Position numbers and translations under genes: made by a program. DNA of 64,000 bases from positions 546,709 through 610,708 of the forward strand of contig OZ246405.1 of the NCBI GenBank assembly GCA_965231005.1. Direction: 5' to 3'. Shown here piece by piece: positions 17,595-44,527 of the stretch; the first letter of the stretch is position 1, and each line of letters begins with the position of its first letter. The notes under the pieces were generated by a model, which was not told the DNA's origin, did not search any database, and was given only the letters and a program-made list of their open reading frames with translations. Source of the DNA: an uncultured Gammaproteobacteria bacterium (GTDB lineage: Bacteria > Patescibacteriota > Patescibacteriia > Magasanikbacterales > UBA922).

Positions 17595-17945
17595 GTGGAC
17601 ATGGTGTTTAGTGGCAATAATCAAAAGCCCAAGATTGGCATGCAGGTAGAAAAAGGGGAAGAAGGAAGAACAAGACTGTCAGACCGGATTGCAGTGATTG
17701 CAAAACACTGTGAGAAGTTCAAGATTGGTCTTTCTGCAATACCAATCCAAGATGCCCAGCAATACGCAGATACATACACGAACATGGTCATTATGTTCAA
17801 GACAGGATCTCTCGAAGAAGCCCAAGAGATGATTGGAACCGTCATCGGTCGGTTCGTCGAGGATTCCAAGAACGATAACCTTCTCGGTGAGAGAATCGAT
17901 CAATCCGAGAAACCACCTTATTACATTTACGTCGTTTTCAGTTAG
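17595..17945 (+). CDS. Small GC-rich paralog 1 (116 aa) of a GIY-YIG-clan (T5orf172-like) family
   Basis: RBS gggaggtgg. An alternative start is the ATG at 17601. It contains KFKIGLS...P....Y...Y.NMVIMFKT...E..I......KNDN...PPYYIYVV, which aligns with the two downstream paralogs. Confidence 0.6.
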   Translation: MDMVFSGNNQKPKIGMQVEKGEEGRTRLSDRIAVIAKHCEKFKIGLSAIPIQDAQQYADTYTNMVIMFKTGSLEEAQEMIGTVIGRFVEDSKNDNLLGERIDQSEKPPYYIYVVFS

Positions 17946-17969
17946 CACCCACAACGTCCTGGAGGGGAC

Positions 17970-18311
17970 ATGACAACACAAGAGAAGAAGATTGAGATAG
18001 ACCGACAAGAAGAAAAAGGCGAGCACGCTGAAGGGGAGTTGGTCGAACGCATCGGCCTTTTGGCGCTATTTTCCATACGATTCAAGATCGGCATCACCAA
18101 CGATCCAGACGAGCGTTCCAAGGCCTACAAAGACGATTACGATCGCATGGTCGTGCTCTTCCAAACAGACGATCTCGACAAGATTCGTCAGGTCGAGGAT
18201 GACATGATCGAGAAGTTCAAGGCAGAGAGCAAAAACCGAAACCAAATCGCTGGTGGTGGCGGAGACGCTGGTGATCCACCGTACTATCTGTACGTGGTCC
18301 AAAAGTTCTAG
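17970..18311 (+). CDS. Small GC-rich paralog 2 (113 aa), GIY-YIG-clan/T5orf172-like
   Basis: RBS ggagggg, 6 nt upstream. Contains RFKIGITNDPDERSKAY, RMVVLFQT, KNRN, GGGGDAGDPPYYLYVV. Confidence 0.65.
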   Translation: MTTQEKKIEIDRQEEKGEHAEGELVERIGLLALFSIRFKIGITNDPDERSKAYKDDYDRMVVLFQTDDLDKIRQVEDDMIEKFKAESKNRNQIAGGGGDAGDPPYYLYVVQKF

Positions 18312-18445
18312 TCGTGTAGGGCATTCTGCAAGGAGAAGAGGGCACAGCAGGCACTTGTCTGGTGTTGCCCTTTTTATTTTTTCTCTATTACTGATTTGCT
18401 ACCCTTTCCATTACAACCAAAACGCCTACAACCCAGGAGGGAATC

Positions 18446-18799
18446 ATGGCAAAGAAGGGGAAGCTCGTCATCAAGACGTTCACGATCGACATGGACGAGA
18501 GAACAGGCAAGGCAGGAAGGGAATCACTTCCTGTTCGAATTTCAGCGCTTGCAGGATATGCAAAGCGTTTCAAGATCGGGATTACCAATGATCCAGAGGG
18601 TCGTGCAAGTGAATACACCAGAAAGTACTCTCGCATGGTCGTCCTGTTCAAGACCAGCAGTCTTACGCGCATTCGCAACGTTGAGCGGCAGATGGTCGAT
18701 CGCTACATCGATCATCCCAAGAACGACAACAAGGTCGGTGGTGGCGGTGGTGACTACGGTGACTCGCCATACTTCTTGTACGTCGTTCTGAAGTACTAG
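18446..18799 (+). CDS. Small GC-rich paralog 3 (117 aa), GIY-YIG-clan/T5orf172-like
   Basis: RBS caggaggg. Contains RFKIGITNDPEGRASEY, RMVVLFKT, KNDN, GGGGGDYGDSPYFLYVV. A terminator-like T-run follows the gene. Confidence 0.65.
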   Translation: MAKKGKLVIKTFTIDMDERTGKAGRESLPVRISALAGYAKRFKIGITNDPEGRASEYTRKYSRMVVLFKTSSLTRIRNVERQMVDRYIDHPKNDNKVGGGGGDYGDSPYFLYVVLKY

Positions 18800-19080: not shown

Positions 19081-22000
19081 ATGAGAACATCGACATATTA
19101 CATAAAACAGGGAAGCATTATTATATTAGCTTTCTTAACAGCGTTTATGCCGACTGCGTCTGTGTTTGCACAGACCTATGATGCTCCGTTTGACGATCCA
19201 ATCATATACGAAGAACCACCATTGTCAGATGTGGATCCTTGGACTCCTCCAGCATTTCCAGATTATTATCCAGATCCTATTGATATTGATGATAACGGTT
19301 TTCCTCTTGGAGATGATCCATCCATCCTTTCAGCAAATACATTTGACCCAACAACAGATCCATTGTTTAAACCAATGCCAGAGAATGCATGGGGAACACC
19401 ACTCTCATATGAAGTTCCATTGTACGACTGGGCAAAACCAACAACATCCTATATTGAGAATGGTCTTGTTATAAGTCCTGCAGAAATTATTTCAGATTTT
19501 GATCCAAATGAAAGTGGTATTGCAGAAATGGATGAACCAATAGCACCACTTGATTCAGCAGAACCGACTGAATCTCCGCTAGATGATGAAGATTTTGAAG
19601 ATGGAGATCCAGATGTGGGTATTGATGATATAGTTGTTCTTCCAGAAGATGGCTCTATTGATTCATCTTCAGTTGGAAGTATACCTGCAGAAGAAGGTGA
19701 ACAAGAATCAAATGATGAAGAACAAGAACCAATAGATGAGTCTTTATATCAAGTACAAGATTCATATACAGATGTAGCAAAACTTCCAAACGGAAAAACA
19801 GTTGTCCGATTATACAAAGAACCAAGAATGGTTTATGAATCAGAAGATGGATTAAAAGTTCGACCATTAAGTTGGAGTTTATTTCATGAACAAGAAGAAT
19901 CAAAGCTTAGAGACAATGGATCTGACACTTATAGATATGAAATTCCTTCTGAACAAGAAAATATTGTGGTACGTCCAGGAACGCTTGAACGGGACTTTGG
20001 GCAGACAATTATTGAGCCAGAAGCAGCACGATTTGACCAATACAGAGATGGAAATGAAATGATTACTCGGTATAGCGGTGTATATCCTGGTGTTGATATT
20101 AGTTTTCATGACATAAAAGACTACAGACAGCGTGCAATTGTTATTAATGAACCGTTGGAAGGTCTAGATGATAGTGATAATGCTATTTTTTGGGAAACAT
20201 ATTCTCTCCCAGAAGAATCAAGAGTTTCTATTGGTGCAGAAGAGTATTTAGAAGACGGATATCATGAACTTCCTTCAGATATTGTAACAATAGAACAACC
20301 AAATGGAGATAAATTTGCTGTAACTGGTGCAATTATTTTTGATCAACGAACTGCTGACCCAGTGAGCATAGATATGAATCCAACTGTTGTTGATCAAATT
20401 GTTCATGTTGATAGAGGAGCAGGGGAATTACGAATTGGGTTAAAAGCACCAGGAACATATTTAAATGATCCTGAACGTGCATATCCAGTTATTATTGATC
20501 CGTACAATTATATTTGTAAAGACAATTCTTCTCAAAATATAAAATCTTGTTCAATTGAAGAGGTATATCTTCGATATAAGACAAGTAATAGTATAACGGC
20601 AAAACAATCGAATAAGTATTTACTTCTTGGCTATATATACAGTTATGTGAAGCCAACAGGCCCGTCTCATAGACAGCCAGTCATGCGGTTCATGAAAAAT
20701 GATAAAAATTTCTTTCCAAATTTAAAAAATTATGGAACCCTTGATAAGGCAAAATTATACATGAGACGTTCAGAAGTAAATGGTTCTGGAAGTTATACAG
20801 GAAAGATTCCAACTGTTGTGCGAAGAATTTATACTCCATCAACATGGCATCCAAATTGGGTAACATTTAACTATGTTGGTAACCACCTTCATACAATCAG
20901 TGATACAACAAATGTATTTGGAAATATGAAAGAGGGAGCTTCTGCAAGTTGGGATATTACAGCACTTGTTGGATTGTGGATGACAGGGACAACAAATAAT
21001 GGATTTCTCATCCAACCTACACCTGTTTGGAATAAAAATGGGAGTGTTCCAACCTGGCCGAAGAAAATTCTTTGGTTTAGATCTTCAAAACACCCGGATG
21101 ATTATGGACCATATATTCGATTTGACTTTACAGAAGCCAAAAAACCAAATCTCACAAAGCAGAGTGATAATCTTACTGGATGGTGGAAAATAGCAAATGG
21201 TGTTAGGTACTTCCGTCCAGGAGATAAAATGACTATTAAAGCAACAGTAAAGAATGAAGGCCCTGGCTCTGCTGGAAGTTCTTCATATGTAAAGTATTAC
21301 TTGCGTCCAGGTCATTCTTCTTCAAAACCACAAAATCAATACTATCTTAGTGGCAGTCAAGATTATGTACCTAATCTTTCACAGGGGAGCACCTCAAATG
21401 AATCATACACATATACCATCCCAAGCAATAAACCGAATGGTGATTATGGTATTTTTTATAGTATTGACGCAAATAATAATGTTAGTGAAAGTGATGAAAA
21501 TGATAATATATGGTTTTGGAACATTCGGATAGAAGCAGAGAAAAAAGTAAACTTAGTTATTACTGATCCAACAATTCAAAGTTCTGTTAAACCAGGGGAA
21601 TCTGTAAATGTTTCTGGGACAGTAAAGAATATTGGAACGTCACCTTCTGAAAAGACAAAGATGTGTCATTACATATCAAAGACTACAAGTAAAAATAATA
21701 TTGTTGTAGATTATCCAAAGATTGATCCTGGAACAGTAGAAAATACAAGTGCATTAAGTCCAGGAGGAAAAGATAAAGATTCTGAAACACTTAAAATACC
21801 AACCAATTTGGCTCCAGGAGGATATTATTTGTTGTTTGAGGCAGATTGTAAAAACAATCAAAAAGAAACAAATGAAAATGACAATATTGGGTGGAAATAT
21901 TTTACTGTTGCACAACCAACCAAACCAGATCTTTTTCTTAAAAACACAAGTCACAATTACACAACAAGAAAACAAGGTGAAGTACTTAGAGTGACTTCAT

Positions 22001-25000
22001 ATGTAGAAAATAAAGGAGATGCAAACGCTGGAACATTTAAAGTTGGATATTATCTTTCAACAGATACAAGTCTTGGTGGGGATACGCTCATAGGAGAGAG
22101 AGAATTTTCTTCAGGAGTTGCCGTTGGGAAAATTGAAAATAGATTTAAAGATCTTACTATTCCAGTGAATCAAACACCTGGCAATTATTATATTATTCAT
22201 GTTGCAGACTATAAGGGGCAAATTTCTGAGAAGAATGAAAATAATAATTCTGCATATCGTGCACTTACAATAAAATCGAAAGATGAGCCAACTAATCTTA
22301 TTGCAAAGTCAAACACTCTTTTGAACACAAGTAAGACTCATTTGGGTGGACAGACAGTGCAAATGCAGGCAACGATTGAGAATAAGGGAACGAACTCAGC
22401 GAATAATATTAAAGTAAAATTACAGCTTGAAAATACAAAAACAGGATCGTTTGTTGTTCTGAAAAATGTTTCTCCACCTGGGGTCACAATTTCGGGAAAT
22501 AGTACAAAGACGGTTACATACACGGGTCTTATAGAAAATACTTGTGATTTACCATTAGAAGGAACATACGCGGCACATATTACTGTTAATAGTAATCAAG
22601 CGATTGGAGAAATAACATACAAGGATAATATTGTAAAAACAAAAGCAGGCAACACAATAAAAGTAAAACGATACAATATTTGTACGCCAAAGAAGTTTGA
22701 CGAAGACAATGATGGATTTTATGACAGCGAAGAATTTTACATGGGTTCAGACCCAATGTCAAAAGAGAGCATTCCAATTCCAGCAAGCAATTTTGAAAAG
22801 GATTTCAGTCTTCCAGTTGACTATGCAGTAGACAATTTTGGTGGTGATCCAGTCAATCTTCGAACTGGTGCAATTGAATTTACACAAACAGATTACACAC
22901 TCGACGGTCGTGGTATTCCTATTAACATAAGCAGAACATATAACAGTAGACTTGCTCATGTTAGCAGTACCATAGGTACGGGTTGGAATCATTCGTATAA
23001 TTTATATGCGTTCCAAGATCCAAATACAAAGAAAACATTTGTAAATCTTGGTGGATCAAAAGCAATAGAATTTACTACAAGTGACGGTGGAAAAACATTT
23101 TCTGTAGAACGAGGGGAAACAGGGACATTGTATTCAGACAACGGAGTACTCACATATAAACTTCTCAATGGAACAAAATATCGATTCACAAAAAGTCTTT
23201 CAGAACGGCTCTTCCTTTTAACTGAGATTGTTGACACGTTTGGTAACACAACGAAATTGAACTATAAAGATATTCGAGGTCTTCAGGTGCTTGAATCAAT
23301 TGCAGATGCATCTGGAAGAAAGGTTACATTTAAACATGGTGAAATAACCGACGATATTGAATGGAATAAAATTGTTGCTATTGAAGACACTGTTGCAAAC
23401 ACAAATAAACGACATATTGCATATTCATATGATGACAAAGGAAGACTTACAGAGGTAAAAGAAACTCGTCGAACAGGGAACAAAACTGACTATGCTGTTC
23501 GAAAATTTGGCTATGATGACAAGAACAGAATGACAACGTACACAGATCCGCGTGGAAGTATCTTGTACAACACATATGATGGAAACAATAGAATTATTGA
23601 ACAGCATGAGCATAATCCACTTACAGAAAATCCTGGAGAAAAACATCTTATTTTCAAACTTTCATATACAGGAGCAAATGCACAAATTCCTGGTAGTACT
23701 GAATGTACAACCTTAACATCGTACAGAGATACAGAGGAAAAAGATCTTGTTGTTGATCAGTATTGTTTTGACAAACATGGAAACAAGATCGCTCACAAAG
23801 ATGGAGAAGGGAATATTGAAAAATGGAAATATCATGACAATGATTTAGTTGTTGCATACACTGACAAAAAGAATAGAGTAACATCATATAACTATGATGG
23901 ACTTAAGCGTTTGCAAACAACAATATTGCCAGATTCTGATAAATATCATACAGAAATTCATTATACATACGAAGACACATTTAATCGCGTGAAGCAGATG
24001 GAAGAAAAGGTGTATGATTTATCTAATAAATTATTAGGCACACGTATTACAAGTAATGTTATTGATTCAAAAACAGGTGCAGTTACTGAAAGTACTGATG
24101 TGCTCAAAAACAAAGAATCATTTACCTATGATCAGTATGGTAATGTTTTGACTCATATAAATAAAAACAAGAATAAAACAACATTTACATACGATGAAAA
24201 AGGCAATTACCTTACAAAGCAAAGTACACAATGGAAAAAACCACTGTCGTCTACAGTCAACACACATTCAGTCGCATATGAGTATGATGATCATGGCAAT
24301 CTTACAAAGAAGACATATGCAGATGGTAAGTCTGATACATACACATACGATTCTGCCGGAAATGCGTTGTCTCACACAGATAGGCAAAATGCAACATATT
24401 CATATTCGTATGATGTAGAAAATCATCGAATTTCTGAAAAGGATCCACTAGGGACAGCGACAACATTTACATATGACAAAGATCTTGAAGGCCGTCTAAT
24501 AAAAATAGAAACAACATCAGGAGGAAAAACTATTACAGAAACTACTGATTATGATTTATTGGGTAATGTGTTAAGAGAAACAGATGCACTTAGCAGAGCT
24601 ATTTCATATGAATATGACAAAGTAAACAGGCTTGTAAAAGAGCTGCGGCCATATCATACAAAGACATTTACATATGATGTGAGTGACAACCTTACAAAAG
24701 AAATAACTGACAAAGGACACAAAACTGAGTATGCCTATGATAAACATGACCAATTAATTGAAACAAAGGTCTATACAAGTCCAACAGCATTTGTTTTAGC
24801 AAAGTCTTCATATGACCACTTTGGACGAGAAGTTTCAGCAACAGATGGAAACAACAATTCAACAATATTTACATATGATCTTGCTGATCAATTACTGACA
24901 AAGGTTGATGCAGAAAAGCAAAAAACAAGCTACTTTTACGATGCAGAAGGAAATATTATTGGTGAGTTATCTCCACGCGCACAGGCTGACAAAGGGTTAA

Positions 25001-28000
25001 GAAACCCAAATGGTCACAGTATTACATATAAATACAATGAGTTAGGACTTCTTTCCCAGCGGATTGATGCTGATGGTAAAGCAACATCATTTATTCACAA
25101 TGCAGATGGAACAGTTGCTAAACAAATTGATAGACATAATGCAGATGGAACAGAACTTTCACGTAGTCAAACATTTACCTACGATGGTGAAGGAAGAATA
25201 TTAACGGCTGCTGACCCAAGTGGTGAAAAAGAAGTATATACATATGATGCTGTTGGGAATCTCAAAACAATCAAAGACAAAGGTAGTCGAACAACAACAA
25301 TGACATATGATGGTTTTGGCAGACTGACACAACAGAAAGATCCTTCTGGAGCAATTACAACATATACATATGATAATGTTGGAAATAGAAAGACAGTAAA
25401 ACTTCCTAGTGGGCAAATTACGAATTTTGAATATGATAAGGAAAACAGATTGGTAAAAACAACAGATCCATTAAAAGGAGCAAGCGTCTATACATACGAT
25501 GTCTTTGGTAATAGAACAAGTATTCAAGATCCACGTAAAAATAAGACCTCATTTACATATGATCTTGGTGGTCAATTGGTTGAAGAAGTTGATGCACAAG
25601 GAACAAAGATCATTTACACATATGATAAGAATGGAAATCGTCTAACACAAGATGTTGCAGGGAAGAAAACATCATATGTTTTTGACAAAGTAGACAGGGT
25701 TACAAAGGTTACACATCCTGGAAATGTTGTAGAAACATTTGCATATAATGCAGATGGACTTGTGCGTGAGCAAACAAATGGAAATAATGTTAAGACAGCA
25801 TACACATATGACAATCTTGGACGAACAGTAAAAAAACAATTTGCAGATAATTCTACATATACATTTGGATATGACCAATGGAGTAATGTAAAAAAGATTA
25901 CTGATGATGTTGGAACAATTGATTATACATATTCAAATAGAAATGAACAGTTAAGTGAAAAAAGAACGTTTAGTGATTTAAACAAGTCATTTACTGTTGC
26001 AAGGACATATACACCAAATGGATTGCTTAAAGATGTAACAGATGCAGCAGGGAAAAAGATTGATTATGTCTATGACAATCGTGCAGCACTAAAATCTGTT
26101 GCACACAAGAGTAAGATTTTAGCATTATACACATATTCAAGTAATGGAACACCAACAAAAGTTACGTATGGAAATGGTGTAACAAATAATATTGCATACG
26201 ATGAATTAGATCGTGTGGGTAGTTTTGCAATTAAAAATTCATCTGGAAATAATTTGTTTACCCATGCATATACTTACGATGGGGCAAATAACAGAACAAA
26301 AACAGTTGAAAATGGAACACGAACAATTGAATATACATATGATGGACTTGATCAATTAAAAACAGAAAAAATTACTGACAAAGGAAATGTATATTCATTT
26401 GGTTTTGATTATGATAAATGGGGAAATAGGAGCGCACTGACATCTCCACATCAAAAAGCTACATATGCATATACAAATGGAACAGATCGACTTGAAAAAA
26501 CTGCATACAATGATCGTCTTTCTGTAGCAACAACATATGATAAAAATGGAAATGTAGCAAAAGAATCATTTAGTAGACTTGGAAAAGATTTGCGAAGTGT
26601 AGATTATGTATGGAATGCAAAAAATCAATTGCAATCTATTTCATATACAGACAAGAGCAGACCATCATTCATGCCAGCGCTTGAAAAGAACTCAATGACC
26701 TTTGCATATGATTTTGCTGGCAATCGTGCAAAGAAAAAAGCAAATAATCAAACAACATACTACATCAACAATGGCGTACTTGTTCAAAATGAGATTAATG
26801 GCTCAGGCTTGGTCACACTTTCTTTGGTACAAGGACTTGATACTGTTGCACGAATCAATGCAGCAGGAACAATAGAATATATTCATCAAGATGCCCTTGG
26901 TTCTACTGTGTTGATTACAGACGCGAATGAAAAAGTTGTAGAAGAATATGAATACACACCATTTGGAGAAATAGCTGGACTTGGCAATGGTAATCATTCC
27001 TATCTGTTTACAGGGCAAGAATACGACATTGAATCTGACCTTCATTATTACAATGCACGATATTACAATCCACGAACTGGACGATTCTTGTCTAGAGATC
27101 CATTCATGGGTGTTGCAGGAAGCACATTATCGAGAAATGCATATATTTATGTAGAAAATAATCCACTGAAACATACTGATTCAACAGGACTTTGGTTTGG
27201 AATAGATGATTTGATTGCTGCAGGTGTTGGGGCTGTAGTAGGTGTTGCAGCACAAGCTGTATCAGATTTGGCAACAAGTGCAATAAATGGAAAACTTGAG
27301 TTTAGTAGTTGGCAGACCTATACTGGTGCTGCTGTAGGTGGAGCTGCAGCAGGAACTGCATTCCTATATACTGGACCAGTCGGTTCTGCCCTAGTCTATG
27401 GTGCTGTATCAAATGCAACAACACAGGGATTAAACATTGCGACTGGAGTTCAAGATAGTTTTGATACAAAGAGTTTTGTTACTGAGACAGTAGCAAGTGG
27501 TGTTCTTGGTGGTGTTGGTGGAAAAATACTTCCAAAAGTAGCTCCAAAGATATTGCCGAAGATTACGTCAAAAGTGCTTCCAAAGGTTACATCTAAAGTT
27601 AATACTGCTATCAATACAGTCCGATCTAAGTTAGTACCAAAGGCTACTAAATTTACACAAGATACACTAAAATCTTTGAAAAATACAAAGGTAAAAGGTG
27701 TCTATGATATTGTTCTAAAAAATGGAAAACACTATGTTGGTCAGTCAAAAAACATTGCAAATAGGTTGTTGCAGCATATAAAGAACAAAAAGTTTTCTCT
27801 AGATGATATTGCAAATATTAAGATAAAGGAAGTTGTTGGTGGTAAAACAGCTCGGGAAATAGTAGAGCAACGAATAATAAATTCTCTTGGTGGTATTAGA
27901 GGAGGCAATCTTCTAAATGTAGTAAATCCAATAGGAAAAGCAAGACAATACCTTATGAATCAAGCGCCAAAAATAGTTAGATCAGGCTGGTTCTCTAAGA

Positions 28001-28116
28001 TCTTTGGTGCAGGACCAAAGATAGGAGGAGCAGCGACTACGCAGCAGATACTAGGTGCAACAGGAGTTGGTATGGGAATTACTGGATTGAATTATGCATT
28101 TCAAGATAATAAATAA
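19081..28116 (+). CDS. RHS/YD-repeat polymorphic toxin (3011 aa) with CARDB-like repeats and a C-terminal GIY-YIG nuclease tip
   Basis: The leader is MRTSTYYIKQGSIIILAFLTAFMPTASVFA, followed by an Asp/Pro-rich region. Several CARDB-like modules end in E.NE.NN motifs. The RHS core N-terminus is RTGAIEFTQTDYTLDGRGIPINISRTYNS. There are dozens of YTYD..GN YD repeats. The RHS core end is YYNARYYNPRTGRFLSRDPFMGVAGSTLSRNAYIYVENNPLKHTDSTGLW. In the tip, KGVYDIVLKNGKHYVGQSKNIANRLLQH matches GIY-x10-YIG-x-R..H, with downstream E (AREIVEQ) and N (LLNVVN). Confidence 0.88.
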   Translation: MRTSTYYIKQGSIIILAFLTAFMPTASVFAQTYDAPFDDPIIYEEPPLSDVDPWTPPAFPDYYPDPIDIDDNGFPLGDDPSILSANTFDPTTDPLFKPMPENAWGTPLSYEVPLYDWAKPTTSYIENGLVISPAEIISDFDPNESGIAEMDEPIAPLDSAEPTESPLDDEDFEDGDPDVGIDDIVVLPEDGSIDSSSVGSIPAEEGEQESNDEEQEPIDESLYQVQDSYTDVAKLPNGKTVVRLYKEPRMVYESEDGLKVRPLSWSLFHEQEESKLRDNGSDTYRYEIPSEQENIVVRPGTLERDFGQTIIEPEAARFDQYRDGNEMITRYSGVYPGVDISFHDIKDYRQRAIVINEPLEGLDDSDNAIFWETYSLPEESRVSIGAEEYLEDGYHELPSDIVTIEQPNGDKFAVTGAIIFDQRTADPVSIDMNPTVVDQIVHVDRGAGELRIGLKAPGTYLNDPERAYPVIIDPYNYICKDNSSQNIKSCSIEEVYLRYKTSNSITAKQSNKYLLLGYIYSYVKPTGPSHRQPVMRFMKNDKNFFPNLKNYGTLDKAKLYMRRSEVNGSGSYTGKIPTVVRRIYTPSTWHPNWVTFNYVGNHLHTISDTTNVFGNMKEGASASWDITALVGLWMTGTTNNGFLIQPTPVWNKNGSVPTWPKKILWFRSSKHPDDYGPYIRFDFTEAKKPNLTKQSDNLTGWWKIANGVRYFRPGDKMTIKATVKNEGPGSAGSSSYVKYYLRPGHSSSKPQNQYYLSGSQDYVPNLSQGSTSNESYTYTIPSNKPNGDYGIFYSIDANNNVSESDENDNIWFWNIRIEAEKKVNLVITDPTIQSSVKPGESVNVSGTVKNIGTSPSEKTKMCHYISKTTSKNNIVVDYPKIDPGTVENTSALSPGGKDKDSETLKIPTNLAPGGYYLLFEADCKNNQKETNENDNIGWKYFTVAQPTKPDLFLKNTSHNYTTRKQGEVLRVTSYVENKGDANAGTFKVGYYLSTDTSLGGDTLIGEREFSSGVAVGKIENRFKDLTIPVNQTPGNYYIIHVADYKGQISEKNENNNSAYRALTIKSKDEPTNLIAKSNTLLNTSKTHLGGQTVQMQATIENKGTNSANNIKVKLQLENTKTGSFVVLKNVSPPGVTISGNSTKTVTYTGLIENTCDLPLEGTYAAHITVNSNQAIGEITYKDNIVKTKAGNTIKVKRYNICTPKKFDEDNDGFYDSEEFYMGSDPMSKESIPIPASNFEKDFSLPVDYAVDNFGGDPVNLRTGAIEFTQTDYTLDGRGIPINISRTYNSRLAHVSSTIGTGWNHSYNLYAFQDPNTKKTFVNLGGSKAIEFTTSDGGKTFSVERGETGTLYSDNGVLTYKLLNGTKYRFTKSLSERLFLLTEIVDTFGNTTKLNYKDIRGLQVLESIADASGRKVTFKHGEITDDIEWNKIVAIEDTVANTNKRHIAYSYDDKGRLTEVKETRRTGNKTDYAVRKFGYDDKNRMTTYTDPRGSILYNTYDGNNRIIEQHEHNPLTENPGEKHLIFKLSYTGANAQIPGSTECTTLTSYRDTEEKDLVVDQYCFDKHGNKIAHKDGEGNIEKWKYHDNDLVVAYTDKKNRVTSYNYDGLKRLQTTILPDSDKYHTEIHYTYEDTFNRVKQMEEKVYDLSNKLLGTRITSNVIDSKTGAVTESTDVLKNKESFTYDQYGNVLTHINKNKNKTTFTYDEKGNYLTKQSTQWKKPLSSTVNTHSVAYEYDDHGNLTKKTYADGKSDTYTYDSAGNALSHTDRQNATYSYSYDVENHRISEKDPLGTATTFTYDKDLEGRLIKIETTSGGKTITETTDYDLLGNVLRETDALSRAISYEYDKVNRLVKELRPYHTKTFTYDVSDNLTKEITDKGHKTEYAYDKHDQLIETKVYTSPTAFVLAKSSYDHFGREVSATDGNNNSTIFTYDLADQLLTKVDAEKQKTSYFYDAEGNIIGELSPRAQADKGLRNPNGHSITYKYNELGLLSQRIDADGKATSFIHNADGTVAKQIDRHNADGTELSRSQTFTYDGEGRILTAADPSGEKEVYTYDAVGNLKTIKDKGSRTTTMTYDGFGRLTQQKDPSGAITTYTYDNVGNRKTVKLPSGQITNFEYDKENRLVKTTDPLKGASVYTYDVFGNRTSIQDPRKNKTSFTYDLGGQLVEEVDAQGTKIIYTYDKNGNRLTQDVAGKKTSYVFDKVDRVTKVTHPGNVVETFAYNADGLVREQTNGNNVKTAYTYDNLGRTVKKQFADNSTYTFGYDQWSNVKKITDDVGTIDYTYSNRNEQLSEKRTFSDLNKSFTVARTYTPNGLLKDVTDAAGKKIDYVYDNRAALKSVAHKSKILALYTYSSNGTPTKVTYGNGVTNNIAYDELDRVGSFAIKNSSGNNLFTHAYTYDGANNRTKTVENGTRTIEYTYDGLDQLKTEKITDKGNVYSFGFDYDKWGNRSALTSPHQKATYAYTNGTDRLEKTAYNDRLSVATTYDKNGNVAKESFSRLGKDLRSVDYVWNAKNQLQSISYTDKSRPSFMPALEKNSMTFAYDFAGNRAKKKANNQTTYYINNGVLVQNEINGSGLVTLSLVQGLDTVARINAAGTIEYIHQDALGSTVLITDANEKVVEEYEYTPFGEIAGLGNGNHSYLFTGQEYDIESDLHYYNARYYNPRTGRFLSRDPFMGVAGSTLSRNAYIYVENNPLKHTDSTGLWFGIDDLIAAGVGAVVGVAAQAVSDLATSAINGKLEFSSWQTYTGAAVGGAAAGTAFLYTGPVGSALVYGAVSNATTQGLNIATGVQDSFDTKSFVTETVASGVLGGVGGKILPKVAPKILPKITSKVLPKVTSKVNTAINTVRSKLVPKATKFTQDTLKSLKNTKVKGVYDIVLKNGKHYVGQSKNIANRLLQHIKNKKFSLDDIANIKIKEVVGGKTAREIVEQRIINSLGGIRGGNLLNVVNPIGKARQYLMNQAPKIVRSGWFSKIFGAGPKIGGAATTQQILGATGVGMGITGLNYAFQDNK

Positions 28117-28118
28117 TT

Positions 28119-28982
28119 ATGTTTGGAAAGAAAAATTTTAAAGTTGAATTCTCACGTGTAGGAAGTACGGTTGTATTGCAAGGTTCTTGGGATGATAGTA
28201 TTGGAGAATATATTCGAAAGAAAAAAATAAAAGGATTATCTCTGAACCATACAGAAGGTTGGGATCAGGGAGACCTAGAATTTCTTAGAGAACTTCCAAA
28301 TTTAGAATCTATTCAAGTTATTGGACATGACATAAAAGGATATCTTCCATTACAACATTTAAGAAAATTAAAGGAAGTCATGTTAGACAACTATTACACT
28401 GATAATAAAATTGACTTTGATTGGTTTCCAAATGTTGAACGTGTAGAGATTGATTGGGGGAAAAAGATAAAGAATTTTTCAAATGCTGTTCATACAAAAT
28501 ATCTTTCGATTTATAGATTTAAAAGTGTTGACTTGAGTGAACTTTCTTCATTTTCAGAATTAGAAGAACTTGTGCTAAAAGTTTGTCCTGCAAAAAGCAT
28601 CAAAGGTATTTCTAATCTTAAAAAAATAAAAATATTATATCTAATGAGATTTACAAAATTGGAATCATTGGAAGGATTGGAAGGATTAGAGAACGTTGAA
28701 GATTTTGTTCTTGATACGTGTAAGAAAGTTATAAATATTGATCAAATATCTGGATTAAAAAATGTTAAAACAATGAGATTAGATAATTTAGGTGAGATTG
28801 AGTCATTGAAACCACTGCAAGGTTTAGATAATTTAGAAGAGTTATATTTTGCAGAAAGTACAAACATAAAAGATGGAGATTTGTCTGTATTGCTTACACT
28901 TCCGAGATTGAAGAAAGTCTTGTTTGTAGACCGAAAACACTATAGTCATTCTAATGATGAATTAGAAAAATTGTTAAAATGA
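28119..28982 (+). CDS. Leucine-rich-repeat protein, candidate immunity protein for the RHS GIY-YIG tip
   Basis: Its ATG lies 2 nt after the RHS stop. The 287-aa ORF has repeated LxxLxxLxxLxL units (LESLEGLEGLENVEDFVLDTCKKVINIDQISGLKNVKTMRLDNLGEIESLKPLQGLDNLEELYF). It has no signal peptide. Confidence 0.65.
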   Translation: MFGKKNFKVEFSRVGSTVVLQGSWDDSIGEYIRKKKIKGLSLNHTEGWDQGDLEFLRELPNLESIQVIGHDIKGYLPLQHLRKLKEVMLDNYYTDNKIDFDWFPNVERVEIDWGKKIKNFSNAVHTKYLSIYRFKSVDLSELSSFSELEELVLKVCPAKSIKGISNLKKIKILYLMRFTKLESLEGLEGLENVEDFVLDTCKKVINIDQISGLKNVKTMRLDNLGEIESLKPLQGLDNLEELYFAESTNIKDGDLSVLLTLPRLKKVLFVDRKHYSHSNDELEKLLK

Positions 28983-29004
28983 GTTTTTTGACAATAAATA
29001 ATGT

Positions 29005-29652
29005 ATGAAAGAGGTAGATGAGAAGACAAAAGAATTACTTACAGAGTATTTTGCAGAACTTCGAAAGGTTGGATATGATATTAAAGATACTTATTACTTT
29101 GTGAACAATGAAGATCCTTCACCTGAAGTTATCAAAATTATCTTGAAGTATATACCACTTATTGACAATTCTGTTTATAAAGAAGGTCTTATCAAGAGTA
29201 TTTCTGTAAAAGGAATTAAGGATGCAGTTCCCATATTGCTGAATGAATATCGTAAGAGTCATAATTCACAGACCATGTGGATTATAGGAAATGCACTCTG
29301 GGCGATTCAGGATAATGCAATTGCAGATGAGATCATTGAGCTTCTTGATTCTGAATTTGTTCTTGAAGATCAAGATGGTTCATTAGAAAATACCGATGAT
29401 ATAAAGCCTACGGTGGTGCGTGCAAAAGAAACACTGCTCTGGGCTCTTGGTGCAACAAAAGATAAAAAGGCAATTCCTATATTAAAGAAATATTTAACAG
29501 ATGAGCTATTGGCAGGTCATGCCCTGGAAGGACTTAAATATTTTAAAGATCCTCAATTGATACCTGATGTTAAATCTCTCCTTAAACATGAAAAAAAGTG
29601 GGTGAGGGATAAGGCAAAAAGATATATTAATCGTTTGGAAAAACTCAAGTAA
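29005..29652 (+). CDS. HEAT/ARM-like repeat protein (215 aa)
   Basis: Helical repeats with the PBS-lyase/HEAT flavour (AVPILLNEYRKSHNSQTMWIIGNALWAI, KAIPILKKYLTDELLAGHALEGLKYFKDPQLIPDVKSLLKHEKKWVRDKA). It sits between the RHS cassette and the next secreted protein. Confidence 0.5.
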   Translation: MKEVDEKTKELLTEYFAELRKVGYDIKDTYYFVNNEDPSPEVIKIILKYIPLIDNSVYKEGLIKSISVKGIKDAVPILLNEYRKSHNSQTMWIIGNALWAIQDNAIADEIIELLDSEFVLEDQDGSLENTDDIKPTVVRAKETLLWALGATKDKKAIPILKKYLTDELLAGHALEGLKYFKDPQLIPDVKSLLKHEKKWVRDKAKRYINRLEKLK

Positions 29653-37163: not shown

Positions 37164-37370
37164 CATGACACATTGACTCAGTTTCCGCCAAAGGCGGACC
37201 AGCCTTTGGCTGGGGTTAGAGCGCCACATTGACATTGTGGAGGTCAGTGGTTCAAATCCAGATGTGCGCACATGACACATTGACTCAGTTTCCGCCAAAG
37301 GCGGACCAGCCTTTGGCTGGGGTTAGAGCGCCACATTGACATTGTGGAGGTCTCTGGTTCAAATCCACTA
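37107..37370. repeat. 107-bp tandem direct repeat (about 2.5 copies) composed of the 3' 57 nt of tRNA-Val plus a 50-nt spacer with two hairpins
   Basis: ggttagagcgccacattgacattgtggaggtc.c.ggttcaaatccagatgtgcgcacatgacacattgactcagtttccgccaaaggcggaccagcctttggctgg repeats with starts at 37107, 37214 and 37321. The third copy diverges after ggttcaaatcca. Copies 2 and 3 lack the 5' acceptor and D arm, so they are tRNA fragments. Confidence 0.75.
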
Positions 37371-37391
37371 GCGGTCACGAAATATATTAAA

Positions 37392-42379: not shown

Positions 42380-44473
42380 ATGAAAAACGCAACACGTTTT
42401 TTCAATAACTTAAAGTATTTGAGCAGACCAAATGCATGGTTGATTGTTTTTGTTTTTATATTTTTTACCCTCTTTTCTTTTGTATTATTTAGTTCTCCAG
42501 AAACAGCGCTTGCACAACAAACAGATACATTTGGAATAGAACAGGTTGATGATTCTGTTGCATTGGGAAGTCAAGATATTCGAATAACGATTGCAAAGAT
42601 TATCCGAACGTTTCTTGGTTTTCTAGCAATTATTGCTGTAAGTCTTGTGCTGTATGCTGGATTTACTATTATGACAGCAGGAGGAAACGAAGAAAAGGTT
42701 ACTGAAGGAAAAAAGATTTTAATAAATGCAGGAATAGGTTTGGCGATTATCATGTCGTCGTTTGCTATTACACAGTTTGTATTAAACAAGTTGGCAGCTG
42801 CAACAGGAATTCGTACTGGACAAGAAGAAGGAGCACTTGTCGAGCCTGGATCTCCTGATTTTCAGAGTTATGCAGCTAGTGGATCTCTTGGATCTATTAT
42901 CAAAGATCATTATCCAGATAGAGATCAAATTGAAGTGTTTAGAAATACAAAAATTGCAGTCACATTTAGAGAGGCAATTGATCCAAGTAGTTTTGTAGAC
43001 AATAAAAATAAAACTTGCTGGAACACAGGAAAAGGTGACGTGGCTGTTTCGTGTGATGACAAAAATACAGAAGATTATTTTGGAGACTGTGTCGGGGATA
43101 ATTGTGATGTGTTAAAAACAGATGTTATTGAAATATACCAAAAAGAAGATAAAGGAAAAACAAAAGTAAAAGCTGCTGTATCATTGCAATATACTGATAA
43201 AAAAGAAGTATTTGGATTTGTGTTAGATCCAATTGATCCAGATCTATTAGGAAATGAAAAAGAAAATACATGGTATGTTGTGGACATAAATAATACACTC
43301 AAGAAATTACAAAAAGATCAAAAAGGAAATGCCATTGGAGTGTTTGACAATGAACTGTACTCTCATTATGAATGGGAATTCCAAACAAATGTAAATGCAG
43401 ATTTTGCACCTCCTGTTGTAAGTATGGTATATCCACCGGCTAATGCAACAATTGCAAGAAATGATGTAATTCAAATTCATTTTAGTGAACCTATTGATCC
43501 TTCTGTTGGGCAAGGGGTCTTAAAAGATGGTGGAGCATTTAAACATATTATTTTCAATAACAAAAAAATTTCCGGAGAATGGAAGATTGTAAATGGATAT
43601 AAAACAATAGAATTTGTTCCAAGCCAAGAATGTGGAGAAAATAGTTGTGGAGATAAATTATATTGTCTGCCTGTGATTTGTCCAGCAGGAAAGGCATGTG
43701 ACAAAGCTCCATATGAAGTATTGGCAAGAACAGCTGAGTTAAAAGATCCAAACAAAAAAGATATTTTTGATGCAAAAGCATTTTCAGGACTTATGGATAT
43801 GGCAGGAAATGCACTCGATGGTAATAAAGACAAAAAGGCTGATAATAAGCCTGCAGTAAAAAATGTTTATGAAATCGATGCATCAGAAAAGAAGGCTGAT
43901 AATTTCTCATGGAATTTTACTGTTGCAGACGAAATAGATCTTACTGCTCCATACATCACAAAAGTGACTCCAGCACTTGATGGACAAAGTATTCCAAAAC
44001 AAGCACCACTTACTATCACATTTAGTCGACCAATGATATTTGATTCGTTATATGGAGGAGTAAACATTAAGGAAACACCAAAAGCAAGTGGTGATGTAGA
44101 TAAACTTTGGTTTGTCCCAAGAGCAGAATTAACAGCAAAAGGGGAGACAAAAGTTACATTTAAACATCGTGACTTTGGTCCAAATGGACAAGATTTATTC
44201 TACTATGTGTCTATTAGTAGTGATGCAAGAAGTGGACAGAATTGTTTATATCCTGGACGTGGCCCATTTGGTTCAAAAAAAGGTGATACAGCTTCTTGCA
44301 CATACGAAGAAGATAAAAATGGAAAAGTGACAAAAAATCAGGGTTGTATTTCTGTTGATTTTGCAGCAAAAACTGACACTGGTTGTGCGCTTACAGACGG
44401 AAAGCAAGGAGAAGAAAAACAAGAAAATATAACAAAGTGTGCAGAATTATTAGATTCAAAGATTCCAAAATAG
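42380..44473 (+). CDS. Large surface protein (697 aa) with an N-terminal VirB2/TrbC-like two-helix pilin module and Cys-containing Ig/beta-rich extracellular region
   Basis: The signal/TM is followed by TDTFGIEQVDDSVALGSQDIRITIAKIIRTFLGFLAIIAVSLVLYAGFTIMTAGGNEEKVTEGKKILINAGIGLAIIMSSFAITQFVLNKL. This is two hydrophobic helices around a short polar loop. It is about 60 percent identical to the N-terminus of the next gene. Confidence 0.65.
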   Translation: MKNATRFFNNLKYLSRPNAWLIVFVFIFFTLFSFVLFSSPETALAQQTDTFGIEQVDDSVALGSQDIRITIAKIIRTFLGFLAIIAVSLVLYAGFTIMTAGGNEEKVTEGKKILINAGIGLAIIMSSFAITQFVLNKLAAATGIRTGQEEGALVEPGSPDFQSYAASGSLGSIIKDHYPDRDQIEVFRNTKIAVTFREAIDPSSFVDNKNKTCWNTGKGDVAVSCDDKNTEDYFGDCVGDNCDVLKTDVIEIYQKEDKGKTKVKAAVSLQYTDKKEVFGFVLDPIDPDLLGNEKENTWYVVDINNTLKKLQKDQKGNAIGVFDNELYSHYEWEFQTNVNADFAPPVVSMVYPPANATIARNDVIQIHFSEPIDPSVGQGVLKDGGAFKHIIFNNKKISGEWKIVNGYKTIEFVPSQECGENSCGDKLYCLPVICPAGKACDKAPYEVLARTAELKDPNKKDIFDAKAFSGLMDMAGNALDGNKDKKADNKPAVKNVYEIDASEKKADNFSWNFTVADEIDLTAPYITKVTPALDGQSIPKQAPLTITFSRPMIFDSLYGGVNIKETPKASGDVDKLWFVPRAELTAKGETKVTFKHRDFGPNGQDLFYYVSISSDARSGQNCLYPGRGPFGSKKGDTASCTYEEDKNGKVTKNQGCISVDFAAKTDTGCALTDGKQGEEKQENITKCAELLDSKIPK

Positions 44474-44527
44474 TTACTAGCTATTAGTTACTAGTTATTA
44501 GCTATTAGCTAGTAACTAATAACTAGT
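44471..44527. repeat. AT-rich inverted-repeat intergenic element (family member B)
   Basis: tagttactagctattagttactagttattagctattagctagtaactaataactagtg is built from ttagttactag and its reverse complement ctagtaactaa. Confidence 0.4.

What the first reader, a model, noticed from the sequence alone, without database searches (positions are those of the whole stretch)
27190..29652. RHS polymorphic toxin with GIY-YIG nuclease tip, translationally coupled LRR protein and a following HEAT-repeat protein
The RHS core ends with the canonical ...YYNPRTGRFLSRDPFMG...NPLKHTDSTGLW. A Gly/Ala-rich hydrophobic linker follows (AAGVGAVVGVAAQAV..., possibly a membrane-insertion or translocation segment). The tip carries GVYDIVLKNGKHYVGQSKNIANRLLQH, a textbook GIY-x(10)-YVG-x(8)-R-x(2)-QH nuclease signature. 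Immunity genes of RHS/CDI systems normally follow the toxin directly. Here the next gene starts 2 nt after the stop and encodes a signal-less leucine-rich-repeat protein, and after it comes a HEAT/ARM-like repeat protein. LRR and HEAT scaffolds are not the usual immunity folds, so this may be an unusual immunity solution or a pair of alternative immunity proteins.
Basis: partly seen in the sequence, partly recalled or inferred. Interest (0 to 1): 0.65.

Follow-up and report, generated by a model that had tools for sequence, protein, structure and literature searches.

The report
RHS nuclease toxin with LRR immunity
A giant secreted RHS protein of a probable CPR/Patescibacteria bacterium ends in a GIY-YIG nuclease warhead whose antidote is almost certainly the leucine-rich-repeat protein encoded 2 nt downstream, while the next gene, a HEAT-repeat protein, belongs to an immunity family that elsewhere guards against a different nuclease toxin.

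Summary
ORF 19081-28116 is a 3011-aa Sec-signal RHS/YD protein. After its RHS core come a glycine-zipper module, a K/P-rich linker, a ~95-aa GIY-YIG domain with its catalytic residues intact, and a Gly-rich tail. A 287-aa cytoplasmic LRR protein starts 2 nt after the stop, and a 215-aa HEAT protein follows.

Comparative genomics separates the two downstream genes. The LRR belongs to a sharply defined family. It sits directly after this same GIY-YIG tip family in 58 of 77 metagenome tip loci and 25 of 48 genome LRR loci, across at least 7 phyla. It usually overlaps the tip or lies within 10 nt of it, and it co-diverges with the tip. It is the cognate immunity protein.

The HEAT gene was absent from all 79 tip-centred loci and follows the LRR only in syntenic CPR loci. 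Its distant relatives sit directly after Tox-REase-7 toxins in three independent loci, which is the published Imm-HEAT pairing. It is best read as an orphan immunity gene, not a second antidote to the GIY-YIG tip.

Both scaffolds were already catalogued as rare immunity folds. The GIY-YIG/LRR pairing itself is not in that catalogue. Verdict: a new member of a known kind, of moderate interest.

The parts
19081..28116 (+). RHS/YD-repeat polymorphic toxin gene (3011 aa). It has an N-terminal Sec-type signal peptide (aa 1-30, ...SVFA/QT), CARDB domains, DUF6531, an RHS repeat shell, an RHS-associated core and a C-terminal tip.
   Evidence: RHS_repeat 322 bits, CARDB 130 bits, DUF6531 49 bits, YD_repeat_2x 242 bits. 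No PAAR, VgrG or LXG domain was reported. The signal peptide is read from the sequence.
22843..23010 (+). DUF6531 domain (aa 1255-1310), which precedes the RHS shell.
   Evidence: PF20148, 49.2 bits (cut-off 24.1).
26953..27192 (+). RHS-associated core domain (aa 2625-2704) ending in ...NPLKHTDSTGLW. This is the predicted autoproteolytic boundary between shell and tip.
   Evidence: TIGR03696, 77.2 bits (cut-off 32.5). The motif is read. It reads DSTGL rather than the usual DPxGL.
27196..27525 (+). Glycine-zipper pre-toxin module (aa 2706-~2815). It is predicted as three long helices and is shared with RHS proteins that carry other C-termini. It is the proposed membrane-translocation module.
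   Evidence: 17 homologues (P0004-P0020), mostly right after an RHS-core end (e.g. GLWFGIDD), with differing C-termini; pLDDT 82-92, helices 3-31, 39-83 and 91-126; (G/A/S)xxx(G/A/S) runs. No Pfam family matches; one search gives only sub-threshold Gly-zipper hits in homologues.
27526..27675 (+). Basic K/P-rich repeat linker (KILPKVAPKILPKITSKVLPKVTSKV...), pI 10.9.
   Evidence: It has low pLDDT in the model.
27670..27963 (+). GIY-YIG (URI-fold) nuclease domain, the toxin. Predicted catalytic residues are Y2875, Y2885, G2887, R2895, H2899, E2929 and N2946/N2949.
   Evidence: PF01541, 28.3 bits. TIGR01453, 28.5 bits (below its cut-off); these residues are invariant or nearly invariant in 21-29 homologous tips; the best PDB sequence match is the I-TevI catalytic domain 1mk0, E 0.03; beta-beta-alpha-beta-alpha order, pLDDT 72-79; pI 10.4.
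27964..28113 (+). Gly-rich C-terminal tail ending ...FQDNK. It is present only in the CPR versions of the tip and its function is unknown.
   Evidence: 69 of 73 tips end 13 aa or less after the nuclease domain. Tails of 33-50 aa occur only in the window, L011 and L049. It is disordered in the model.
28119..28982 (+). Cognate immunity protein: a 287-aa cytoplasmic LRR solenoid of about 10-11 repeats of ~22 aa. The family signature is ESTNIxDGDLSxL...R(K/R)HYxH.
   Evidence: pLDDT 94.4, pTM 0.91; internalin A, Roco LRR and SDS22, E about 1e-10; genomic association, coupling and co-divergence with the tip.
29005..29652 (+). HEAT-repeat protein (215 aa) of the Imm-HEAT family. It is probably an orphan immunity gene, since the family's cognate toxin elsewhere is Tox-REase-7.
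28105..28121 (+). Junction GATAATAAATAATTATG (the last codons D-N-K, the stop, then the LRR start). It is conserved at the DNA level in the CPR loci. A near copy, GACAATAAATAATGTATG, precedes the HEAT start at 28990-29007.
   Evidence: AATAAATAAT occurs 5 times in the window against 0.67 expected.

Best explanation
This is a Sec-exported, WapA-like RHS polymorphic toxin system in a small low-GC genome, probably Patescibacteria/CPR.

Proposed mechanism. The 3011-aa protein is exported through its signal peptide. It is presumably displayed or bound through its CARDB/Ig-like N-terminal region. Its RHS shell encloses the C-terminal tip, which is released at the ...DSTGLW boundary. The tip is modular. 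A three-helix glycine-zipper module is inferred to carry the cargo across the target membrane, as shown for the Tde1 glycine zipper. After a basic linker comes a ~95-aa GIY-YIG nuclease, inferred to be a DNase, that kills the recipient.

The producer protects itself with the LRR protein. It is translated by coupling from a start 2 nt after the toxin stop. It is inferred to clamp the basic nuclease domain in its concave face. In principle this resembles ribonuclease inhibitor on RNase A, although the LRR here is of a different class.

The following HEAT-repeat gene is an Imm-HEAT family member with no cognate toxin present. It is most likely an orphan immunity gene, kept either to resist neighbours' Tox-REase-7-type toxins or as a relic of a displaced tip cassette.

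What is shown: the domain identities, the conserved catalytic residues, and the genomic association statistics. What is inferred: export route, cleavage, translocation, nuclease substrate, and physical binding.
For: Architecture.

Tip family: the ~90-aa domain has invariant G-Y...Y-G...R...E-Q...N...N. Its best PDB relative is I-TevI. The predicted strand/helix order is that of GIY-YIG.

LRR as cognate immunity:
- LRR homologues follow RHS proteins with the same tip in unrelated lineages. Examples are L006, L009 (Terriglobales, also a 2-nt gap), L011 and L046 (Xenorhabdus).
- In the tip-centred scan, 58 of 77 evaluable loci have the LRR gene next.
- In the LRR-centred scan, 25 of 48 loci have the tip directly upstream. 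The rest are standalone or sit in polyimmunity-like contexts, as orphan immunity genes do.
- 58 of 73 non-redundant pairs overlap or are 10 nt or less apart.
- The immunity class tracks tip similarity: the nearest tip has the same class in 87 of 92 cases. Tip and LRR distances correlate (r 0.66, Mantel 0 of 2000). The LRR evolves faster (median 35% identity against 55% for the tip).
- The tip also occurs as orphan cassettes and behind PT-HINT domains, so it is a mobile toxin module.
- The LRR has no signal peptide and gives a confident solenoid model.

HEAT as Imm-HEAT:
- Family members directly follow Tox-REase-7 in L027 (59.5 bits), L144 (an RHS tip, 55.5 bits, 2-nt gap) and L015 (71.8 bits).
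- This matches the Imm-HEAT/Tox-REase-7 row of Zhang 2012.
- The L011 orthologue is fused to an Imm33-like immunity domain.
- There is no Tox-REase-7 in the window.
- There is no HEAT gene in 79 tip loci.

Glycine zipper precedent: PMC10240207.
Against: Nothing here is biochemical. There is no nuclease assay, no binding data and no multimer model.

The GIY-YIG assignment rests on modest scores: 22.4 bits in the whole protein, 28.3 on the isolated domain, and E 0.03 to I-TevI covering only the N-terminal half. The Foldseek search with the whole 306-aa tip model gave no significant match. The GIY part of that model has only pLDDT 72-79.

The LRR is near neutral (pI 6.6), not the acidic DNA-mimic type.

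For HEAT, the window protein is only 26-33% identical to the Tox-REase-7-linked members. It is the best-conserved gene of the locus between CPR genomes: 52% identity against 34-40% for RHS, tip and LRR. The three CPR loci that have HEAT are also the only ones whose tips carry the extra Gly-rich tail. A CPR-specific functional link to this toxin is therefore not excluded.

The taxonomic assignment to CPR is indirect. It rests on T4SS_pilin proteins, a 1.23-Mb contig, and synteny with a Patescibacteria MAG.
Confidence: 0.75

Rival explanations
1. Dual immunity. Both LRR and HEAT bind the same GIY-YIG tip, at the active site and at an exosite, or they act as redundant alternatives.
For: The order tip-LRR-HEAT is kept in three deeply diverged CPR loci: the window, L011/L044 and L049. 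HEAT is the most conserved gene there. A dual-immunity nuclease system has been demonstrated (Tde5/Tdi5a/Tdi5b, PMC13392607). In L027 a tip is followed by both an LRR and a DUF5076 protein.
Against: 0 of 79 tip-centred loci carry a HEAT family gene, and most GIY-LRR pairs in other phyla lack it. The three CPR loci are syntenic through the flanking genes, so they amount to one evolutionary observation. HEAT relatives pair with Tox-REase-7 three times.
Confidence: 0.1
2. Compartment-specific protection. HEAT neutralises a second, membrane-active toxicity of the tip (the glycine-zipper module or the CPR-specific Gly-rich tail), while LRR blocks the nuclease.
For: Glycine-zipper segments can themselves permeabilise membranes (PMC10240207; the EsxX abstract). 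The long Gly-rich tail and the HEAT gene co-occur in the same three loci.
Against: RHS proteins with the same glycine-zipper module (P0004-P0020) gave no sign of HEAT partners, although their neighbourhoods were not examined. HEAT is a soluble cytoplasmic repeat protein. The co-occurrence is confounded by synteny. The L004 RHS also ends in ...DNK but has no HEAT gene.
Confidence: 0.06
3. HEAT is an ordinary cellular gene, not an immunity gene at all, that merely lies next to the RHS operon in this lineage.
For: A 59%-identical homologue sits among ribosomal and FtsZ genes on an archaeal-type contig with no toxin nearby (L013). The exhaustive search finds a very large family of ~200-aa HEAT proteins. 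HEAT_2 proteins have many roles.
Against: The L011 orthologue is fused to an Imm33-like domain. Five of the seven contexts examined are toxin loci. There are three direct Tox-REase-7 adjacencies.
Confidence: 0.15
4. The LRR protein is an accessory factor (chaperone, adaptor or receptor-binding partner) for the RHS protein rather than an inhibitor.
For: LRRs are generic binding scaffolds. SDS22 and internalins are the nearest folds.
Against: The LRR tracks the tip, not the delivery scaffold. It occurs with RHS, PT-HINT and orphan cassettes. It has no signal peptide. It occurs as standalone copies and beside a SUKH-like gene. It is replaced by small DUF5076-like or RraB-like proteins in sister tips. 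All of this is immunity-gene behaviour.
Confidence: 0.05

Closest known systems
Tox-URI1 (URI/GIY-YIG fold) tips of RHS and HINT polymorphic toxins (Zhang et al. 2012, PMC3482391)
   Same: The nuclease fold is the same, as is the motif series Y, YxG, R, basic-x-E, N. The tip sits at the C-terminus of RHS proteins and behind PT-HINT domains, and the immunity gene lies directly downstream.
   Different: The immunity partners listed for Tox-URI1 are Imm14, Imm26, Imm44 and Imm51. Here the partners are an LRR family (76 of 94 non-redundant tips), DUF5076-like proteins and RraB-like proteins. No Tox-URI1 HMM was available to test formal membership. Tox-URI2 (PF15653) gave no match.
Imm-LRR immunity proteins (Zhang et al. 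2012); LRR immunity predicted in Stenotrophomonas Rhs loci (bioRxiv 10.64898/2026.07.13.738213)
   Same: A cytoplasmic LRR protein is encoded next to a polymorphic toxin. It is also found as orphan copies and in polyimmunity contexts.
   Different: The 2012 catalogue lists LRR only 'next to T5SS toxins'. Here the partner is defined (a GIY-YIG tip), mostly on RHS proteins, in at least 7 phyla. No experimentally characterised LRR immunity protein was found in the searchable literature.
Imm-HEAT / Tox-REase-7 pair (Zhang et al. 2012)
   Same: The window HEAT protein is a detectable homologue of HEAT proteins that directly follow Tox-REase-7 (L027, L144, L015).
   Different: There is no Tox-REase-7 in the 64-kb window. 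Identity to those members is only 26-33%. In CPR loci the gene sits after a GIY-YIG/LRR pair.
WapA of Bacillus subtilis (Sec-dependent YD/RHS contact-dependent toxin; from my own knowledge)
   Same: It has a signal peptide plus an RHS shell and a C-terminal nuclease tip with an adjacent immunity gene. No T6SS parts are present (PAAR, VgrG).
   Different: WapA tips are tRNases with small immunity proteins. WapA has cell-wall binding repeats, whereas this protein has CARDB domains and a glycine-zipper pre-toxin module.
Ribonuclease inhibitor bound to RNase A/angiogenin (from my own knowledge)
   Same: The principle is the same: an LRR horseshoe neutralising a small basic nuclease.
   Different: This is an analogy only. 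RI has 28-29-residue repeats, whereas this family has ~22-residue repeats and is nearest to internalin, SDS22 and Roco LRRs. Binding has not been shown.
Tde1 glycine-zipper translocation motif (PMC10240207)
   Same: GxxxG-rich helices precede a DNase cargo. In Tde1 they are required for entry into the prey cytoplasm.
   Different: Tde1 is a T6SS cargo with a short N-terminal motif. Here a ~110-aa three-helix module lies between the RHS core and the nuclease. No homology was shown.

Membership tests
RHS/YD polymorphic toxin | Multiple YD/RHS repeats forming the shell | tested here: met
   PF05593, 322 bits in 15 stretches. TIGR01643, 242 bits in 21 stretches.
RHS/YD polymorphic toxin | RHS-associated core domain ending in the PxxxxDPxGL-type cleavage motif, followed by a variable tip | tested here: met
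   TIGR03696, 77.2 bits (cut-off 32.5) at aa 2625-2704. The motif reads NPLKHTDSTGLW, with S in place of the usual P. Cleavage itself cannot be tested here.
RHS/YD polymorphic toxin | Cognate immunity gene immediately downstream of the tip | tested here: met
   There is a 2-nt gap to the LRR gene. The same gene pair recurs in 76 non-redundant loci. Neutralisation has not been tested.
T6SS-delivered Rhs effector | PAAR/prePAAR or VgrG-linked N-terminus | tested here: not met
   There is no PAAR or VgrG hit. The protein has a Sec-type signal peptide and CARDB domains instead.
GIY-YIG nuclease superfamily | Match to the family profile above the curated threshold | tested here: met
   PF01541 scores 28.3 bits on the isolated domain and 26.4 on the tip (cut-off 22.6). 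It scores 22.4 in the full protein, just below.
GIY-YIG nuclease superfamily | Catalytic set: GIY Tyr, YIG Tyr/Gly, Arg, (His), Glu, Asn | tested here: met
   The set is Y2875, Y2885, G2887, R2895, H2899, E2929 and N2946/N2949. These are invariant or at least 90% conserved in 21-29 tips. The N-terminal half aligns to I-TevI residues 2-34. The Glu and Asn equivalence is inferred from position.
GIY-YIG nuclease superfamily | Three-stranded sheet with flanking helices (beta-beta-alpha-beta-alpha fold) | tested here: inconclusive
GIY-YIG nuclease superfamily | Nuclease activity | not testable with these tools
   This needs a toxicity assay and an in-vitro DNase/RNase assay.
Tox-URI2 (PF15653) | Profile match | tested here: not met
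   No hit at E up to 10.
Tox-URI1 (Zhang 2012) | Motifs Y, YxG, R, [RK]xxE, N; RHS/HINT context; immunity Imm14/26/44/51 | tested here: inconclusive
   The motifs are present, except that the spacing is R-x3-E. The RHS and HINT contexts are met. The listed immunity families were not seen. No Tox-URI1 HMM is in the libraries.
Imm-LRR (LRR-type immunity protein) | LRR solenoid, cytoplasmic, encoded adjacent to a toxin tip; also found as orphans | tested here: met
   The model has pLDDT 94.4 and hits internalin, SDS22 and Roco. There is no signal peptide.
Imm-LRR (LRR-type immunity protein) | Binds and neutralises the cognate toxin | not testable with these tools
   Only monomer prediction was available. 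Co-divergence (r 0.66) is supportive but is also expected for any linked genes.
Imm-HEAT (immunity to Tox-REase-7) | HEAT-repeat protein homologous to those encoded after Tox-REase-7 | tested here: met
   HEAT_2, 38.2 bits. A family HMM links the window protein with the L027, L043, L015 and P0079 proteins.
Imm-HEAT (immunity to Tox-REase-7) | Cognate Tox-REase-7 toxin directly upstream | tested here: not met
   There is none in the window; the upstream gene is the LRR. The feature is met in the homologous loci L027, L144 and L015. The gene is therefore filed as an orphan member.
Ribonuclease-inhibitor-type LRR | 28-29-residue RI-class repeats | tested here: not met
   The beta-strands recur every ~22 residues. 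The top structural matches are internalin, SDS22 and Roco, not RI.

The most novel reading that the evidence does not exclude
In the CPR lineage the toxin may have acquired a second layer. The CPR-specific Gly-rich C-terminal tail and the strongly conserved HEAT protein co-occur in the same three loci. HEAT could be a recruited Imm-HEAT that now binds this tip at an exosite, or binds its membrane-active Gly-rich modules. That would give a two-immunity system for a single RHS toxin in an ultra-small episymbiont genome. Separately, the LRR family would be the first defined bacterial LRR-type nuclease inhibitor. About 76 natural toxin/inhibitor pairs across at least 7 phyla are available for specificity studies.
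Probability: 0.12. Interest if true: 0.6.

Novelty: new member of a known kind. Interest (0 to 1): 0.38.

Why it matters
The locus is a standard RHS toxin/immunity module, but the work defines two things that were not explicit in the literature I could search.

First, one sharply delimited LRR family (signature ESTNIxDGDLSxL...RKHYxH) is the predominant immunity partner of one GIY-YIG/URI tip family. DUF5076-like and RraB-like proteins are the alternatives. This gives an experimentally tractable bacterial counterpart to the ribonuclease-inhibitor principle, with many co-diverged natural pairs.

Second, a streamlined, probably CPR genome keeps an orphan Imm-HEAT gene behind its own toxin/immunity pair. 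This bears on how episymbionts with ~1-Mb genomes invest in interbacterial conflict.

No experimentally characterised LRR immunity protein was found in the searchable library.

Tried and rejected
- phmmer of the nuclease domain against PDB sequences found nothing. A profile of 21 tips found only weak I-TevI and UvrC matches.
- The same profile search gave sub-threshold similarity of the tip's C-terminal half to the colicin E7/pyocin S2 HNH region (E 0.09-0.2). I treat this as chance, because the HNH histidines are absent.
Narrower alignments worked, so the scans are biased toward members that carry ESTNIxDGD or GGKTAREI.
- A Pfam scan of HEAT-family members with extra length showed no informative fusions.
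- Pfam, NCBIfam and homologue scans gave no curated family for the glycine-zipper module.
- I considered whether the LRR family pairs with toxins other than the GIY tip. Upstream ORFs in the 23 tip-less LRR loci were read by eye only and looked like housekeeping or immunity-like genes, not toxins.
- I considered an acidic DNA-mimic mechanism for the LRR. Its pI of 6.6 gives no support.
- An Rfam scan of the GC-rich island upstream of the RHS gene found nothing credible.


Full report
**1. What is in the sequence**

The window is low-GC (about 36%) and almost entirely coded on the + strand. ORF 19081-28116 encodes 3011 aa.
- It starts with a Sec-type signal peptide (MRTSTYYIKQGSIIILAFLTAFMPTASVFA/QT).
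- It carries CARDB domains, DUF6531 (aa 1255-1310) and a long run of RHS/YD repeats (PF05593, 322 bits; TIGR01643, 242 bits).
- It carries the RHS-associated core domain (TIGR03696, 77 bits, aa 2625-2704).
- The core ends ...YYNPRTGRFLSRDPFMG...NPLKHTDSTGLW at aa 2705.
- No PAAR, VgrG or LXG element is present.

The stop (28114-28116) is followed after 2 nt by the ATG of a 287-aa ORF (28119-28982). Twenty-two nt later comes a 215-aa ORF (29005-29652). After that lie a secreted Ig/PKD protein and SMC.

There are trivial corrections to the motif spacings (x9 and x7, not x10 and x8).

The host is probably a Patescibacteria/CPR bacterium. Giant proteins with PF18895 T4SS_pilin N-termini lie nearby. 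The identical LRR protein lies on a 1.23-Mb contig. The nearest syntenic locus is from a 'Patescibacteria group bacterium' MAG (L044). This assignment is inferred, not proven.

**2. Anatomy of the tip (aa 2706-3011)**

It has four parts.

(i) aa 2706-~2815 is not a mere linker. Seventeen database proteins (P0004-P0020) match this stretch, in most cases directly after an RHS-core end such as GLWFGIDD, and then continue into different C-termini. AlphaFold models it confidently (pLDDT 82-92) as three long helices rich in small-xxx-small motifs. No curated family matches it. By analogy with the Tde1 glycine zipper, which is required for delivering a DNase across the prey membrane (PMC10240207), I infer a translocation role.

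(ii) A basic K/P-rich repeat linker follows.

(iii) aa 2864-2961 is the GIY-YIG domain.
- PF01541 scores 28.3 bits on the isolated domain (cut-off 22.6).
- In alignments of 21-29 homologous tips the residues G2873, Y2875, Y2885, G2887, R2895, E2929, Q2930, N2946 and N2949 are invariant or nearly so. H2899 is at least 90% conserved.
- A profile of the family finds the I-TevI catalytic domain as the best PDB sequence (E 0.03, N-terminal half only).
- The model has the beta-beta-alpha-beta-alpha order expected of the fold.
- The domain is strongly basic (pI 10.4).
- Fold-level confirmation failed for technical reasons. The assignment therefore rests on sequence evidence.

(iv) The last part is a ~50-aa Gly-rich tail. 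It is disordered in the model and present only in the CPR versions.

**3. The LRR gene is the cognate immunity gene**

The protein has no signal peptide. It models as a 10-11-repeat solenoid with caps (pLDDT 94.4, pTM 0.91). It is nearest to internalin A, Roco LRR and SDS22.

It belongs to a well-delimited family of 280-320-aa proteins with a characteristic C-terminal signature (ESTNIxDGDLSxL...R(K/R)HYxHxREDF).

Neighbourhoods of individual homologues showed RHS proteins ending in the same GIY-YIG domain. Examples:
- L006.
- L009 from a Terriglobales MAG, again with a 2-nt gap.
- L011 from a groundwater Patescibacterium.

Two systematic scans followed.

LRR-centred scan, over one genome per GTDB species:
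- It returned 48 loci from Planctomycetota, Acidobacteriota, Verrucomicrobiota, Bacteroidota, Proteobacteria (for example Xenorhabdus innexi and Sphingomonas), Armatimonadota, Poribacteria and Patescibacteria.
- 25 loci have the tip directly upstream.
- In the remaining 23 loci the upstream ORFs, read by eye only, looked like housekeeping genes or, in L020, a SUKH-like gene downstream of an RHS core. That is the behaviour of orphan immunity genes.

Tip-centred scan, over metagenome contigs:
- It returned 79 loci.
- Of the 77 with room for a downstream gene, 58 have the LRR family gene next.

Across 73 non-redundant pairs, 58 overlap (ATGA or TAATG types) or are 10 nt or less apart.

The 19 exceptions are informative. 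The next gene there is a ~90-aa DUF5076-like protein (11 loci) or a ~120-aa RraB-like protein (6 loci, plus the orphan cassette in L043). These were assigned by Pfam on one member each and by similarity for the rest.

Among 94 non-redundant tips the classes are 76 LRR, 9 DUF5076-like, 7 RraB-like and 2 unknown.
- The nearest-neighbour tip has the same class in 87 of 92 cases.
- Tip and LRR pairwise identities correlate (r 0.66; Mantel 0 of 2000).
- The LRR diverges faster (median 35% identity against 55% for the tip).

The tip also occurs in orphan cassettes and behind PT-HINT domains. It therefore travels as a toxin/immunity module independent of the carrier.

All of this is what a cognate immunity protein looks like. 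Physical neutralisation remains an inference.

**4. The HEAT gene is a different matter**

The word-indexed search found only seven relatives. An exhaustive HMMER search shows a large family of ~200-aa single-domain proteins.

The order RHS-tip-LRR-HEAT is found in three CPR loci: the window, L011/L044 and L049. These loci are syntenic through the next gene as well. Identities between the window and L011 are RHS core 40%, tip 38%, LRR 34%, HEAT 52% and the downstream secreted protein 30%. They therefore count as one evolutionary observation.

None of the 79 tip-centred loci contains a HEAT family gene, even with an improved family HMM.

HEAT family members directly follow Tox-REase-7 toxins in three independent places:
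- an orphan cassette in L027 (PF15649, 59.5 bits);
- an RHS tip in L144, with a 2-nt gap (55.5 bits);
- an ORF in an eCIS locus, L015 (71.8 bits).

That is exactly the 'HEAT repeats - Tox-REase-7' row of the polymorphic-toxin catalogue (PMC3482391).

Further context:
- In L043 a member sits at the end of an array of orphan toxin/immunity cassettes.
- In L011 the orthologue is fused to an Imm33-like immunity domain.
- The window has no Tox-REase-7 anywhere in its 64 kb.

The best reading is an orphan Imm-HEAT gene. It is kept either to resist other cells' toxins or as the relic of a displaced tip. I put about 0.55 on that sub-claim.

Three facts keep a CPR-specific link to this toxin alive (about 0.15 in total):
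- HEAT is the most conserved gene of the locus.
- It co-occurs with the CPR-only Gly-rich tail.
- Dual immunity to one nuclease has a precedent (PMC13392607).

**5. Comparison with what is known**

RHS toxins with URI/GIY-YIG tips (Tox-URI1 and Tox-URI2), and LRR and HEAT immunity proteins, were all catalogued in 2012. A 2026 preprint predicts an LRR immunity protein in Stenotrophomonas Rhs loci. The kind is therefore known.

The following is not in that catalogue or in the literature I could search. This particular LRR family is the main partner of this GIY-YIG tip family. It has two alternative small partners, and it is spread over at least seven phyla. No LRR immunity protein appears to have been characterised experimentally.

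The system works like WapA (Sec-exported RHS) combined with a ribonuclease-inhibitor-like principle. It is not a member of the RI repeat class: its repeats are ~22 residues, not 28-29.

**6. Verdict**

- Observation: confirmed.
- Interpretation: partly supported. LRR immunity holds. 'LRR and HEAT as paired or alternative immunity for this tip' does not.
- Novelty: a new member of a known kind, with an uncatalogued but widespread toxin/immunity pairing.
- Interest: 0.38.
- Confidence in the core explanation: 0.75.

Noticed in passing
window 17595-18799 (+): Three tandem paralogous small ORFs lie just upstream of the RHS gene: 17595-17945, 17970-18311 and 18446-18799 (113-117 aa). They share ...FKIG(I/L)(T/S)..DP..R...Y......MV.LF.T..L.....E......SKN.N...GGGG..PPYY.YVV. 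They sit in a GC-rich island (0.47 against ~0.35). Two give sub-threshold hits to MUG113/T5orf172, families I recall as GIY-YIG relatives (19-20 bits against cut-offs of 20-22). Any relation to the toxin locus is unknown.
   Followed up: partly
window 28105-28121 and 28990-29007; L011 5933-5951; L049 527-544; L004 428-445: The DNA string GATAATAAATAA(T) forms the last codons (D-N-K-stop) of the RHS gene in four CPR loci whose proteins are only 34-40% identical. A near copy, GACAATAAATAATGTATG, precedes the HEAT start in the window. AATAAATAAT occurs 5 times in the window against 0.67 expected. It could be a coupling or re-initiation signal or a cassette-recombination junction. This was not resolved.
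   Followed up: partly
L027 4441-5907: In a Planctomycetia MAG the GIY-YIG tip cassette is followed by both an LRR family gene and a DUF5076 gene. These are two of the three alternative immunity families, side by side. They are followed by a Tox-REase-7/HEAT orphan pair. This is a natural candidate for dual or stacked immunity.
   Followed up: partly
L013 6515-7453 (also L014): The closest HEAT homologue outside the CPR loci (59% identity) lies on a contig with archaeal-type genes (ribosomal S27e and S24e, Spt4, Rpb7, FtsZ). It appears split into two ORFs. This may reflect gene sharing between CPR bacteria and DPANN-like archaea, or a mis-binned contig.
   Followed up: no
window 42380-55642 (+): Two adjacent proteins (697 aa and 3700 aa) both start with a PF18895 T4SS_pilin domain, followed by Big_5/TIG Ig-like domains. 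With the 1543-aa transglutaminase-like and 1996-aa CARDB/PKD proteins upstream, a large share of the window encodes giant surface proteins.
   Followed up: no
window 37308-37378 (+): ARAGORN calls a third tRNA (71 nt, Val-GAC) between tRNA-Val at 37090 and tRNA-Ile at 37392. Rfam did not report it at its gathering score. It may be a degenerate duplicate.
   Followed up: no
L004/L005 1-701 (P0023 locus): A CPR-like RHS protein also ends ...FYDNK, but no GIY-YIG domain is visible in its last 146 aa. It is followed by an 81-aa two-TM protein and only then by the LRR family gene. The LRR may be an orphan behind a membrane-toxin/TM-immunity pair.
   Followed up: partly
window 27835-27945 (tip aa ~2919-2955): The C-terminal half of the tip profile shows sub-threshold similarity (E 0.09-0.2) to the HNH-motif region of colicin E7 and pyocin S2 DNases (GG...N pattern). 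The HNH histidines are absent, so I judged this to be chance.
   Followed up: partly
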